A stretch of DNA of 64,000 nt from the human T2T-CHM13v2.0 reference genome, Homo sapiens, in assembly GCF_009914755.1 (NCBI RefSeq), contig NC_060943.1. The stretch is one strand, 5' to 3'. Within the stretch, counting starts at the first letter, position 1; each line of letters starts with the position of its first letter. A model generated the notes under the pieces. The model saw nothing but the letters and a program-made list of their open reading frames with translations, was not told where the DNA came from and did no database searches. This document shows positions 35,810 to 38,757 of this stretch, in pieces. The translations under genes and the position numbers were made by a program.

Positions 35810-36660
35810 ATTTTTTTTTAATTTTATTTTTGAGATGGAGTTTCGCTCTTGTTGCCCAGGCTGGAGTGCAATGGTGCGATCTCAGCTCACCACAACCTCC
35901 GGCTCCTGGGTTCAAGCAATTCTACAGGCATGCACCACCACACCCGGCTAGTTTTGTATTTTTAGTAGAGACGGGGTTTCTCCATGTTGTTGGTCAGGCT
36001 GGTCTCGAACTCCCAACCTCAGGTGATCTGCTTGCCTCGGCCTCCCAAAGTGCTGGGATTACAGGCGTGAGCCACCACACCAGGCTATTTATTTTGAGAC
36101 AGAGTCTCACTCTGTCACCCAGGCTAGAGTGCAATGGCACGATCTAGGCTCACTGCAACCTCCACTTCCCGAATTCAAGCGATTCTCCTGCCTCAGGCTC
36201 CCGAGTAGCTGGGATTACAGTCATGTGCCACCATGCCTGATTTTTGTATTTTTAGTAGAGACAGGGTTTCACCATGTTGTCCAGGCTGGTTTTGAACTCC
36301 TGACCTCATGATCTGCCTGCCTTGGCCTCCCAAAGTGCTGGGATTACAGGCGTGAGCCACCGTGACCGACTATTTATTTTTTGAGATGGAATTTTGCTCG
36401 TCGCCCAGGCTGGAGCACAGTGGTGCGATCCTGACTCACTGCAACCTCCACCTCCCGGGTTCAAGTGATTCTCCTGCCTCAGCCTCCTGAGTAGCTAGGA
36501 TTACAGGCATGCACCACCACGCCCAGGTAATTTTCTTGTATTTTTGGTAGAGACAGGGTTTCATCGTATTGGCCAGGCTGGTCTCGAGCTCCTGACCTCA
36601 GGTGATCCACCCGCCTCAGCCTCCCAAAGTGCAGGGATTTCAGGCATGAGCCACCTCGCC
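35810..36660 (-). mobile_element. Three tandem Alus truncating the third FN3 pseudo-exon
   Basis: Alu consensus directly abuts GTGTGGGCTGAAA (VWAE) of the FN3 relic. Confidence 0.9.
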
Positions 36661-38334
36661 TTTCAGCCCACACAATGAAGGTTTATGAAGCCCCAGATTC
36701 CAGGGCCTCCACCACAACCCCATCTCTGCCACACTTCTGGTCCCACTGGGGGCCGTGGTCCCTGCCCACTGGACCCAGTAGGTGTAGGTGTGGGGGTCTG
36801 GGCCCCGGGGGGATATACACCTTAGTGTAACAGAACTCAGGGTCTGAGCCTGTATCCTCAGATCCATGACCTGGCCGGGTAAGGAAAGGAAGGGAAGGGG
36901 GTCAGGGTTCCTGCAGGAAGGTTATCTGAGTGGCCTTAAACAGACCCAGTTGTCTCTTACTTGTAGTTCTCAAGAGTAACAGTAGAATGTGCTGGGAATG
37001 CAACATCCGGAGATATGGAGGGACTGGCCAGGCGGCCTGGGCTCCATTCCTGCCTGCCCTAGAAACAGGATGCCCTTCAATGCTTGAGCCCGGTGACTCA
37101 GGTTTCCCCCAGAGTAGAAAACCCAGGGCTGGGTACTTTTTGGGGTCCCTCAGCTGCCATACAAGTGAGGCACACACAGTTGTGACCCTATCCTCCCTAG
37201 GCCACTTTCCTAAGCCTTGGGGGACCAGCTTACAACGGACCCTGGGATTCTGCTGTCCCTTGCTGCCCATCTGTGAGAAACAAGCCCACTTCATGTAACT
37301 TTTTGCGTGTGGCGTTCTGTCTCATCACTCTGGCAAGTTGGTAACCAGTGCACAGTGAACCTGCTTCACAGACCACACCCCATAGTCCCTGGGCCTCCAG
37401 AGCAAAGGGAAGCATCCCCTCCTTCCCACAGCCCTGCTTGCTCTGGAAGGATGCACCCTATCAGTGGGGCCGATGCCAGAGGCCTCCTGAGGCCTCCTAC
37501 TCCCCAAGCCCAGAGTGCTCTCACCCCTCGCCCGTGGCCTCTGTGAGCGTCTGGCTGGGGCTGTTGACCTCATGCTTCTGGGCCCACATGCTGGGGTACT
37601 GCGTCCCTGCAGCCAGGCCCTCCACAGGCACCCTGATGTCTGAGGAGTCACTGGCCCAGCAGAGCCAGTAGGGGCAGGTCTTGGAGTCTGGGCCTGCGGG
37701 GCCCTCAGGGTGAGGGAGCTGGTGGTCTGAGCCGGTGTGACCAGGCCAGGGACTAGTTTGGGAATGTGGAAAGGAGAGAGTCATTTGATAAAGTTTGTTT
37801 GTGGCTCTAATGAGAATAAAGTGCACAGCCTGGCACTTTTTACAAATGTGCACACGCACGCACGCGCACACACACGCAAACACACATGCACACACAAGTG
37901 CACGTGCACACACACGCACATGTTGCTGGGCAGTGGAAAGGTGGCCCCTCTTACCTGTAGACATGCTCAGGACGTCCCTGGGGCCACCTACTCCTTTCTT
38001 CTTGGCCCACACAGAGGTGGTGTAGAGGGTCCCAGGCTGAAGCCCTCCACCACGAGCCAGCAGTGTGACGTGCTTGTGTTCCCGCTGGCCATGCCCCTGG
38101 ACCCAGTAGATGGAAGTCTGCCGGTCTGGGCCCTTGGGGCTGCCCAGCTCAGGGTGATGGAGCTGGAGGTCCGAGCCTCCACACTCACGATTCTGTCTGC
38201 TTTGGCGGCTGACATGGGTAGAAGCCTCTGCGGCAAACAGAAGACGGAATCCCACGGCCCTTCCTAGACGTGCAGGATGGAGGCTGATGGGGTCACTAAC
38301 CTGCTGCTGTGGCCTCTGTCGTGGTCCCGAGGGC
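36660..38334 (-). pseudogene. Decayed PTPRH-like (FN3-repeat) gene: 34-nt mini-exon plus three FN3 pseudo-exons
   Basis: Mini-exon 38301-38334 homologous to PTPRH exon 2. FN3 relics at 37955-38208 (VEARTSSSITLSWAAP/GPDRQTSIYWVQ...GLQPGTLYTTSVWAKK), 37532-37763 (AQTTSSLTL...YWLCW...VEGLAAGTQY.SMWAQK) and 36660-36879 (PGQVMDLRIQAQTLSSVTLR...YTYWVQWA...VEALESG..TFIVWAE). Frameshifts and a stop are present. Confidence 0.85.
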
Positions 38335-38757
38335 CTGGGGAGGGCCCAGATGGGGAATCAGACCCACGGTGGTCTGACCTGCAGGATCGGGATGAAGGCT
38401 GCTGAGTCCCACCCCGCCTCATCCCCACCAGCCACCCCGGCTTGGGAGGGAAGATGGAGCCGGCGTTTTGCCCCTTGCCCCAGGTCTGGGTCCCGGCAGG
38501 GCTGGAAGGAGCCTGAGAGGGATGTGCGCAGCACCTCCGAGAGTCCCGCTTTAGAGAAACACGAATCAGATCATGAGAAAGCAGACCTCTGAGAAGTCAG
38601 ATGAAAGGTCGTCGGGGGACCAGAATCAGGGAGGAGGGACACGACGCTGGGGCTGCTGGATGCCGACAGGAGAGCAGCGTCCCGTCGCTCTGGACTGCCG
38701 ACCCCACAGAGCCCAGGGACCAAAAGCCAGAATGTTCCCCAAACACCAGGGATTATG

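What the first reader, a model, noticed from the sequence alone, without database searches (positions are those of the whole stretch)
36660..38435. Fossil PTPRH-like FN3 surface or secreted protein gene between TMEM86B and PTPRH
Seen: on the same strand as PTPRH and ~13-15 kb upstream of it, a 34-nt phase 0-1 mini-exon is followed by three FN3-coding segments, in the same order as PTPRH exons 2-3-4-5. The segments keep the PTPRH-type signature (AQT.SSI.L.W..P.GPD....YWV.W...VEGL.PGTLY...VWA.K) but carry frameshifts, a stop and damaged splice sites. Intron-exon structure is retained, so this is not a processed pseudogene. It is much more diverged than the intragenic duplicates. No TM or phosphatase exons were found. 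Inference: an ancient tandem paralog of the R3 receptor phosphatase PTPRH, possibly ectodomain-only, lost in this lineage and perhaps intact in other mammals. I cannot tell whether it is already annotated.
Basis: partly seen in the sequence, partly recalled or inferred. Interest (0 to 1): 0.85.

Follow-up and report, generated by a model that had tools for sequence, protein, structure and literature searches.

The report
Dead upstream copy of PTPRH's front end
Between TMEM86B and PTPRH lies the broken, unannotated remnant of an old tandem copy of the front part of the PTPRH gene, an ordinary kind of gene fossil that records how this receptor phosphatase locus grew by duplication.

Summary
On the minus strand, window 36659-39464 is a collinear, decayed copy of the 5' end of PTPRH. 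It holds the promoter/5'UTR/ATG block, an exon-1 remnant, the alternative first exon plus the 34-nt exon 2, and three FN3 exons (A, B, C). A PTPRH-specific FN3 profile scores 43.8, 35.2, 23.8 and 18.5 bits, against at most 9.7 in 20 shuffles. In the whole human genome the only significant relatives are PTPRH's own FN3 exons. The generic Pfam fn3 model does not reach significance on the pieces.

Lesions: 5 frameshifts, one TAA stop, two lost acceptors, one GC donor, and an early stop in exon 1. Exon C is cut by three Alus. No transmembrane or phosphatase exon remains.

New finding: gene models in orangutan (TMEM86B isoforms X2 and X3) and macaque (LOC105488188) splice the mini-exon to FN3-A. 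They carry the same first frameshift, so the copy was dead before the ape/Old World monkey split.

No intact ortholog appeared among named proteins of 134-656 aa. Longer proteins and other genomes could not be searched.

Verdict: a non-processed, truncated pseudogene, absent from the RefSeq rows supplied for this window. Whether it ever worked as a separate gene is open. Interest is modest.

The parts
39323..39464 (-). Copy of the PTPRH promoter / 5'UTR block, ending at the start codon (ATG at 39325-39323)
   Evidence: Local alignment to PTPRH 23344-23201 scored 30. None of 1000 shuffles reached it (z 15.8), and none of 2098 other windows of the 64 kb did. blastn gave E 5e-12. An identical 14-mer containing ACTTCC and a shared GGAAATT are visible in the alignment.
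39270..39325 (-). Exon-1 remnant: the ATG is followed by TGA after 6 codons (39307-39305). The GTAAGT donor of PTPRH is not present, and the sequence runs into the minisatellite.
   Evidence: sequence and alignment to PTPRH exon 1, 23203-23153
38760..39307 (.). 37-bp minisatellite array in the relic's intron 1. The same family fills PTPRH intron 1 at 21618-22809.
   Evidence: TRF: period 37, 15.5 copies. The family gave 215 matches, and all 150 listed are on chromosome 19. This fits MSR1 as described in PMC4725990. Because the family is widespread on this chromosome, it is weak evidence for common descent.
38290..38470 (-). Copy of the PTPRH alternative first exon plus exon 2 (PTPRH 21395-21217). 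Its ATG at 38422-38420 aligns with the alternative PTPRH start at 21357-21355.
   Evidence: Global alignment. Local score 25, with none of 2096 other windows reaching it. A collinear block about 90 nt upstream of exon 2 in both copies has z 4.0.
38301..38334 (-). 34-nt mini-exon, homolog of PTPRH exon 2, with acceptor CCCCAG and donor GTTAGTGA
   Evidence: It is spliced to FN3-A in the orangutan (P0003) and macaque (P0004) gene models.
37955..38208 (-). FN3 exon fossil A (254 nt). Both splice sites are intact. 3 frameshifts (4 in 2 of 7 alignments), no stop.
   Evidence: 44-47% amino-acid identity to PTPRH exons 3-7.
37532..37764 (-). FN3 exon fossil B. 1 frameshift and in-frame deletions. The acceptor AG is lost (CA), and the donor is GC.
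36908..37376 (.). Old interspersed repeat inside the intron between B and C
   Evidence: 41 other matches in the genome (37 of about 310-480 bases at 71-77% identity, 4 shorter). Family not identified.
36664..36881 (-). FN3 exon fossil C. 1 frameshift (2 against exon 9) and a TAA stop at the conserved Tyr. The acceptor AG is lost (CT). The exon is cut after 74 of 88 codons.
35798..36663 (-). Three head-to-tail Alus that end the relic. The missing end of exon C is not found beyond them.
   Evidence: masked stretch; period 286, 80% matches
39853..39969 (-). Exon used in orangutan TMEM86B read-through isoforms X2 and X3, upstream of the relic. The donor ATG|GTTAGC is present in human.
   Evidence: P0003 and P0013 residues 100-138 match at 97%. 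Sequence.

Best explanation
Window 36659-39464 (minus strand) is a non-processed, 3'-truncated pseudogene. It is the remnant of an old tandem duplication that copied the front of PTPRH: promoter, exon 1, alternative first exon/exon 2, and FN3 exons.

It makes no working protein today. Exon 1 stops after 6 codons. The three FN3 exons carry 5 frameshifts and a stop. Two acceptors are gone. Exon C ends in an Alu cluster. There is no transmembrane or phosphatase part.

What still works is signal, not code. The promoter-like block and the splice sites of the exon 1b/2 region and FN3-A are still used in gene models of other catarrhines. Some models start at the relic's own 5' end (macaque). Others read through from TMEM86B (orangutan). 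Such transcripts end in early stops and should be non-coding or degraded.

Shown: homology, anatomy, lesions, uniqueness in the genome, use of the exons in primate gene models, and a shared frameshift.

Inferred: the duplication predates the eutherian radiation. The copy was probably under coding constraint for part of its history and died on the line to catarrhines. The 3' part was either never copied or was deleted.
For: - Collinear homology blocks, each beating its controls.
- FN3 profile hits of 43.8, 35.2, 23.8 and 18.5 bits, against at most 9.7 in 20 shuffles.
- Genome-wide, the only relatives are PTPRH exons.
- No other DNA copy of the relic exists in the genome.
- Lesions and splice sites were mapped.
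- No transmembrane or phosphatase remnant: best E 0.17. Nothing else FN3-like in 23300-40597. With repeats masked, no other homology to the PTPRH gene between the promoter block and PTPRH, apart from one 63-nt match.
- P0003, P0013 and P0004 map onto the relic. The mini-exon is spliced to FN3-A, and they share the same out-of-frame reading after the first frameshift of A.
- Exon identity to PTPRH is about 57-68% at DNA level and 34-47% at protein level.
- Third codon positions are less conserved than first and second. This is most marked in C (about 0.42 against 0.65), similar to functional PTPRH exon pairs.
Against: - The generic Pfam fn3 model is not significant on the pieces.
- Only the 5' part exists, so the copy may never have been a complete gene.
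- No human transcript is annotated here in RefSeq, and I could not look at RNA data.
- The case for past constraint is rough. It rests on recalled neutral indel rates and on a codon-position contrast that alignment by protein similarity inflates.
- The trees do not resolve where the fossils branch.
- The primate evidence comes from predicted gene models, not from reads that I saw.
Confidence: 0.85

Rival explanations
1. Whole-gene paralog: a complete second PTPRH-like receptor phosphatase once sat here and worked. Its 3' half (last FN3, transmembrane and phosphatase exons) was later deleted, perhaps at the Alu cluster, and the rest decayed.
For: - The relic has its own promoter, exon 1 and exon 2.
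- There are 5 frameshifts in about 705 nt. I estimate 17 or more indels if it had been neutral since a duplication at 35-40% DNA divergence. This is an inference from recalled rates.
- Third codon positions are less conserved than first and second.
- Exon C breaks off at an Alu, and its last roughly 14 codons are missing.
- Bat protein P0008 shows that a PTPRH-type protein can have just one N-terminal-type FN3, one exon-8-type, one exon-9-type and one exon-10-type. A-B-C could be the first three of such a set.
Against: - There is no trace of any 3' exon.
- No intact ortholog was found among named proteins of 134-656 aa.
- Fossil C lies outside the well-supported exon-9 clade (98/97).
Confidence: 0.3
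2. Dead on arrival: a partial tandem duplication copied only the 5' end of PTPRH. The upstream copy never encoded anything useful and has drifted since.
For: - Only 5' parts are present.
- Partial duplicates are common.
- Divergence between human, orangutan and macaque translations of FN3-A looks neutral: 70 of 74 residues identical to orangutan, and a further frame difference in macaque.
Against: - The frameshift density is lower than I estimate for neutral decay since the duplication.
- The splice sites of the mini-exon and of A are intact, with the donor context identical to PTPRH exons 3 and 5.
- The codon-position contrast in C is as large as between working exons.
All three points are soft.
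Confidence: 0.3
3. Former upstream module of PTPRH itself: after the duplication, the upstream promoter and its FN3 exons were spliced in frame into PTPRH exon 3 (all are phase 1-1). This gave a longer isoform that was later abandoned.
For: - FN3 exons of both copies have the same phase.
- Same strand, 13-15 kb apart.
- The number of FN3 repeats in PTPRH varies by lineage, and repeats cluster by species. PMC5336234 (passages read) notes species-specific FN3 loop patterns in human and mouse PTPRH.
Against: - No annotated PTPRH transcript starts upstream of 23271.
- The N-termini of the rabbit and bat proteins retrieved look like PTPRH exons 1-2, not like the relic.
- Full-length non-primate PTPRH proteins were out of reach of the searches.
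Confidence: 0.15
4. Still functional today as RNA or as a regulatory element: for example a promoter or enhancer, or alternative 3' exons that give TMEM86B a new tail.
For: Orangutan TMEM86B isoforms X2 and X3 and macaque LOC105488188 use these exons. The promoter block keeps the same ACTTCC and GGAAATT stretches as the PTPRH promoter.
Against: - The encoded tails are out-of-frame FN3 readings.
- They differ between species by indels.
- No human model exists in RefSeq.
- The isoforms keep only the first 99 residues of TMEM86B.
Confidence: 0.08
5. Chance resemblance, or similarity caused by GC-rich low-complexity sequence.
For: Part of the exon-1 match runs into a chromosome-19-wide minisatellite.
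Against: Five separate blocks lie in the same order and strand as in PTPRH. Each beats shuffles and every other window of the 64 kb. Genome-wide E values are about 1e-5.
Confidence: 0.01

Closest known systems
PTPRH (SAP-1), the neighbouring parent or sister gene
   Same: The promoter/ATG block, the alternative first exon, the 34-nt exon 2, and phase 1-1 FN3 exons with the family signature, all in the same order and on the same strand.
   Different: The relic is broken by frameshifts, a stop and lost acceptors. Its introns are much shorter (92, 190 and 650 nt). It has no exon-10-type FN3, transmembrane or phosphatase exon. It shares only 34-47% amino-acid identity.
PTPRVP, the human pseudogene of the R3 phosphatase OST-PTP (recalled from the literature, not checked here)
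   Same: An R3-type receptor phosphatase gene that died on the human line while keeping its exon-intron structure.
   Different: As I recall, PTPRVP covers a whole gene and has a working rodent ortholog. Here only the 5' third is left, and no working ortholog is known.
Duplicated (non-processed) pseudogene fragments next to their parent genes
   Same: Tandem position, retained introns, disabling mutations, and partial gene coverage.
   Different: This copy is unusually old for one that is still recognisable. It keeps a promoter block and usable splice sites.
Read-through (conjoined) transcripts
   Same: The orangutan TMEM86B X2 and X3 models join TMEM86B exons to relic exons downstream on the same strand.
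   Different: The downstream partner is a dead gene, and no such model is annotated in human RefSeq.
MSR1 minisatellite family of chromosome 19
   Same: A 37-bp unit. All 150 listed matches of 215 are on chromosome 19. PMC4725990 (passages read) describes MSR1 as 36-38 bp and densest on 19q.
   Different: I did not compare the array with a reference MSR1 sequence, so the name rests on period and distribution.

Membership tests
Fibronectin type III domain (Pfam PF00041) | Score above the curated Pfam cut-off (25 bits) | tested here: not met
   of 4 relic pieces, 1 gave 12.9 bits (E 0.13) and 3 gave nothing. PTPRH exon 3 as a control gave 42.8 bits. The pieces are frame-broken fragments, so this test is weak.
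PTPRH-type FN3 exon | Significant match to a profile of PTPRH exons 3-9, and PTPRH as the nearest relative in the genome | tested here: met
   43.8, 35.2, 23.8 and 18.5 bits, against at most 9.7 in 20 shuffles; the best non-self matches genome-wide are PTPRH exons (E 2.6e-5 and 5.6e-5).
PTPRH-type gene, 5' architecture | Promoter/ATG exon, 34-nt phase 0-1 exon 2, then phase 1-1 FN3 exons in that order | tested here: met
R3 receptor protein tyrosine phosphatase | One transmembrane segment and one cytoplasmic PTP domain | tested here: not met
   tblastn of the PTPRH C-terminal 375 residues against 23300-40597, best E 0.17; exon peptides 10-16 gave nothing below E 0.05.
Non-processed (duplicated) pseudogene | Introns retained, disabling mutations, parent gene identifiable | tested here: met
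   (5 frameshifts, 1 stop, 2 lost acceptors, introns of 92, 190 and 650 nt). The parent gene lies 13-15 kb downstream.
Unitary pseudogene (a gene lost here but working elsewhere) | An intact ortholog at the same position in another species | tested here: inconclusive
Transcribed pseudogene | Transcripts that use its exons | tested here: inconclusive
   Predicted models in orangutan (P0003, P0013) and macaque (P0004) use its exons. There is no human RefSeq model, and I saw no reads.
Processed pseudogene | No introns, poly-A tail | tested here: not met
   Introns are present between all the exon copies.

The most novel reading that the evidence does not exclude
The relic is what is left of a second SAP-1-like receptor phosphatase gene. 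That gene arose by tandem duplication before the eutherian radiation, worked for tens of millions of years, and was lost on the primate line. It may still be intact, or fused into PTPRH as extra FN3 repeats, in some other mammals.
Probability: 0.25. Interest if true: 0.55.

Novelty: new member of a known kind. Interest (0 to 1): 0.33.

Why it matters
- It adds an unrecorded gene relic to a well-studied human locus.
- It shows that PTPRH grew not only by repeat amplification inside the gene but also by duplication of its whole front end, promoter included.
- It explains odd gene models in other primates (TMEM86B isoforms X2 and X3 in orangutan, LOC105488188 in macaque) as read-through or residual transcription into a dead gene. 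That is useful for annotation clean-up.
- If an intact ortholog exists elsewhere, it would add a sixth R3-type phosphatase to the five vertebrate members listed in PMC5336234.

Tried and rejected
- Generic Pfam scan of the pieces: not significant. It was replaced by a family-specific profile with shuffle controls.
- The minisatellite shared by both intron 1s looked at first like proof of common descent. The family is spread all over chromosome 19, so I gave it little weight. I then re-tested the promoter block outside the array.
- Search for further exons (FN3, transmembrane, phosphatase) in 23300-40597 on both strands: nothing.
- Search for the missing end of exon C beyond the Alus: not found.
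- Intron 2 shows no similarity beyond the donor flank: 61 of 500 shuffles reached the score.
- Other human R3 phosphatase FN3 exons as an outgroup: PTPRH exon 9 finds only PTPRH exons in the genome (7 of 7 matches), so the trees are unrooted.
- Trees of 10 rows and 43 rows: the fossils are unresolved. For one search I gave 17 of the 22 proteins. P0003, P0004, P0013, P0020 and P0021 were left out as relic translations or TMEM86B. 14 of the 17 gave 33 domains. Domains covering fewer than 60 profile positions were dropped, which removed P0014, P0017 and P0022.
- First protein search with the 244-aa open frame: blank, with 28 candidates scored and 516 left out as unnamed.
- Papers: searches for PTPRH with 'pseudogene', 'TMEM86B'+'duplication', 'tandem duplication' and 'gene loss', and for TMEM86B with 'readthrough', found nothing on this relic. 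I read passages of PMC5336234, PMC9900141, PMC9339297 and PMC4725990 only. Supplements were not opened. The S files of PMC5336234 might list PTPRH-like sequences.
- Not used: Atlas search, structure prediction and Rfam, as they are not informative for a broken exon set.
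Full report
**What was checked.** The finding claims a 34-nt mini-exon followed by three decayed FN3 exons of PTPRH type on the minus strand at 36660-38435, between TMEM86B and PTPRH. I read the region and took the PTPRH exon table from the RefSeq file. I rebuilt the exon phases. 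In the RefSeq-select transcript, exon 2 is 34 nt (21228-21261, phase 0 in, 1 out), and exons 3-10 are phase 1-1 FN3 exons of 267-300 nt.

- tblastn of each PTPRH exon peptide against the whole intergenic interval 23300-40597 found three clusters on the minus strand: 38194-37956, 37706-37533 and 36879-36653. E values went down to 1.2e-11.
- A profile built from PTPRH exons 3-9 scored 43.8, 35.2, 23.8 and 18.5 bits on four stop-free fragments in these three places. The next best fragment in the interval scored 5.5 bits. The best of 20 shuffled intervals scored 9.7.
- Searched against the whole human genome in six frames, the pieces find only PTPRH FN3 exons with significance besides themselves (E 2.6e-5, 9.5e-5 and 1.1e-4; 5.6e-5 and 4.1e-4).
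- The DNA has no other copy in the genome apart from an interspersed repeat in one intron.
The generic Pfam fn3 model is not significant on the pieces: 1 of 4 gave a hit, at E 0.13 and 12.9 bits against a cut-off of 25. The family-specific evidence outweighs this, since the pieces are frame-broken fragments.

**The mini-exon is real.** Window 38334-38301 aligns without gaps to PTPRH exon 2. Acceptor and donor are in register, and the donor flanks are nearly identical. Identity is 44 of 62 with flanks. None of 1000 shuffles reached the score (z 13.9), and none of 2118 other windows of the 64 kb did.

**The relic is larger than reported.**
- Upstream of the mini-exon, about 180 nt align with the PTPRH alternative first exon. 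The ATG at 38422-38420 falls opposite the alternative PTPRH start at 21357-21355. None of 2096 other windows reached that score.
- Further up, 39464-39323 aligns with the PTPRH promoter/5'UTR and ends exactly at the start codon, 39325-39323 against 23203-23201. The score is 30 with z 15.8. None of 1000 shuffles and none of 2098 windows reached it.
- After that ATG, the relic reads six codons to a TGA. The PTPRH donor is missing.
- Between exon 1 and exon 2, both copies carry a 37-bp minisatellite. That family is spread across chromosome 19: 215 matches, and all 150 listed are on chromosome 19. It fits MSR1 as described in PMC4725990 (passages read). I count it as weak evidence.
- So the upstream unit is a copy of the gene's front end with its own promoter, exon 1 and exon 2. 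That argues against the simple idea that these are lost 5' exons of PTPRH.

**Damage.**
- A frameshift-aware alignment against each of exons 3-9 gives 3 frameshifts and no stop for A (3 in 5 of 7 alignments, 4 in the other two).
- B has 1 frameshift with in-frame deletions.
- C has 1 frameshift (2 against exon 9) plus a TAA at the conserved tyrosine. C ends after 74 of 88 codons at the first of three head-to-tail Alus (35798-36663).
- The rest of exon C is not found beyond the Alus.
- A keeps its acceptor AG (38210-38209) and a donor context identical to PTPRH exons 3 and 5. In B and C the AG at the homologous position is gone (CA and CT), and B has a GC donor.
- The introns are short: 92, 190 and 650 nt. 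The last of these holds an old interspersed repeat.

**Nothing follows.**
- The PTPRH C-terminal 375 residues (transmembrane and phosphatase parts, with the last exons fetched) find nothing in 23300-40597. The best E is 0.17.
- The FN3 profile finds no fourth exon.
- With repeats masked, no other stretch between the relic and PTPRH resembles the PTPRH gene, apart from one 63-nt match at 31228-31289.

**Age and relations.**
- The fossils share 34-47% amino-acid identity with PTPRH exons 3-9 and 40-45% with each other. This is about as deep as PTPRH exons 7, 8 and 9 are from one another, at 41-45%.
- DNA identity in aligned codons is 57-68%.
- In a tree with 33 FN3 domains from 14 other mammalian PTPRH-type proteins, the fossils are long, unresolved branches. 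The exon-9 clade (human, sheep, naked mole-rat, bat; support 98/97) excludes them. N-terminal repeats cluster by species.
- I infer that the duplication predates the radiation of placental mammals. This rests on divergence levels and recalled rates, not on a dated tree.

**Evidence from other primates.** The profile searches of named proteins gave 4 hits among 512 candidates, with 5727 unnamed left out, and 22 hits among 805, with 7195 left out.
- Orangutan 'TMEM86B isoform X2' (P0003, 222 aa) is TMEM86B exons 1-2, then an exon at 39969-39853, then the mini-exon (10 of 11 residues as in human), then FN3-A read in the wrong frame to the same stop as in human (70 of 74 identical).
- Isoform X3 (P0013) joins the same exon to 38548-38390.
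- Macaque 'uncharacterized LOC105488188' (P0004, 225 aa) starts at 39419-39327, inside the relic's promoter block. It skips the minisatellite as an intron, runs through 38700-38301, and is spliced to FN3-A.
- These models show that the mini-exon donor and the FN3-A acceptor are treated as a real intron.
- All three species share the out-of-frame reading after the first frameshift of A. The copy was therefore already broken in the common ancestor of apes and Old World monkeys, roughly 25-30 million years ago (a date I recall, not one I computed).
- The macaque reading then changes frame where the human one does not, as expected for neutral drift.

**Is it intact elsewhere?** Among the 22 proteins retrieved, only P0003 and P0004 match a fossil piece closely (96% and 87% on the N-terminal block of A). 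All PTPRH and PTPRH-like proteins from rabbit, rodents, bat, sheep and primates match at about 30-67%, no better than human PTPRH. The searches covered only 134-656 aa and only named sources. Other mammalian genomes were not available. The question therefore stays open.

**Did it ever work?** Three soft arguments say it was constrained for a time.
- There are 5 frameshifts in about 705 nt. I would expect roughly 17 or more indels had it drifted since a duplication at this divergence. This uses a recalled indel-to-substitution ratio of about 1 to 8-10.
- Third codon positions are less conserved than first and second. In C the values are 0.42 against 0.65, like working exon pairs such as exon 7 against exon 9 (0.40 against 0.70). 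Aligning by protein similarity inflates this contrast.
- The splice sites of exon 2 and A are intact.

None of these is decisive. I put about even odds on a past coding role of some kind. That splits between a whole-gene paralog that lost its 3' half and an upstream module once spliced into PTPRH. I give about 0.3 to a copy that was dead on arrival.

**Comparison with what is known.** This is a non-processed, truncated duplicated pseudogene next to its parent, which is a familiar class. The nearest named case that I recall is PTPRVP, the human pseudogene of another R3 phosphatase. It differs in covering a whole gene and in having a working rodent ortholog. RefSeq has no feature here. Six literature searches found no description of it. 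PMC5336234 (passages read) lists five vertebrate R3 members and mentions no PTPRH paralog. I could not consult GENCODE.

**Verdict.** The feature is real, correctly spotted, and larger than reported. It is best read as a dead tandem copy of the PTPRH front end that is still used as exons in primate gene models. It is a new member of a known kind, of modest interest (0.33). The boldest reading that remains open is a lost second SAP-1-like receptor gene that survives elsewhere, at about 0.25.

Noticed in passing
window 19034-18975 and 15742-15689 (minus strand): Short FN3-exon relics inside PTPRH introns 4 and 6 (15.0 and 13.8 bits with the PTPRH FN3 profile). These are probably leftovers of the two-exon duplication that made exons 3/5 and 4/6.
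   Followed up: partly
window 21618-22809 and 38760-39307: Large arrays of a 37-bp minisatellite in intron 1 of both PTPRH and the relic. The family is spread over chromosome 19 and fits MSR1. The PTPRH exon 1 coding sequence itself resembles the repeat unit.
   Followed up: partly
window 39641-39916 and 39853-39969: A 49-bp tandem repeat. An exon ending at a donor inside its first unit is used in orangutan TMEM86B read-through isoforms X2 and X3, and the donor is intact in human.
   Followed up: partly
window 36908-37376: An old interspersed repeat that is not masked in the annotation file. It has 41 other matches in the genome (37 of about 310-480 bases at 71-77% identity, 4 shorter). Family not identified.
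   Followed up: no
window 35798-36663: Three head-to-tail Alus, about 80% alike, in the same orientation as the relic. They mark where the relic ends and could be the scar of a deletion.
   Followed up: partly
window 14298-21017 (PTPRH exons 3-7); proteins P0005, P0006, P0009: N-terminal FN3 repeats of PTPRH cluster by species (human, rabbit, guinea pig, naked mole-rat). Human exons 3/5 are 84% identical and 4/6 are 95% identical. The repeat number has therefore grown separately in each lineage.
   Followed up: partly
proteins P0007 and P0008 (Myotis lucifugus): Two different PTPRH-type proteins come from one bat species. P0008 has only four FN3 domains, a possible picture of the ancestral layout. 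Several other species carry 'PTPRH-like' models, which hints that the locus duplicates often.
   Followed up: no
window 32057-32543 and 37851-37896: A long AT-rich microsatellite, and a GT/GC-rich simple repeat in the intron between fossils A and B.
   Followed up: no
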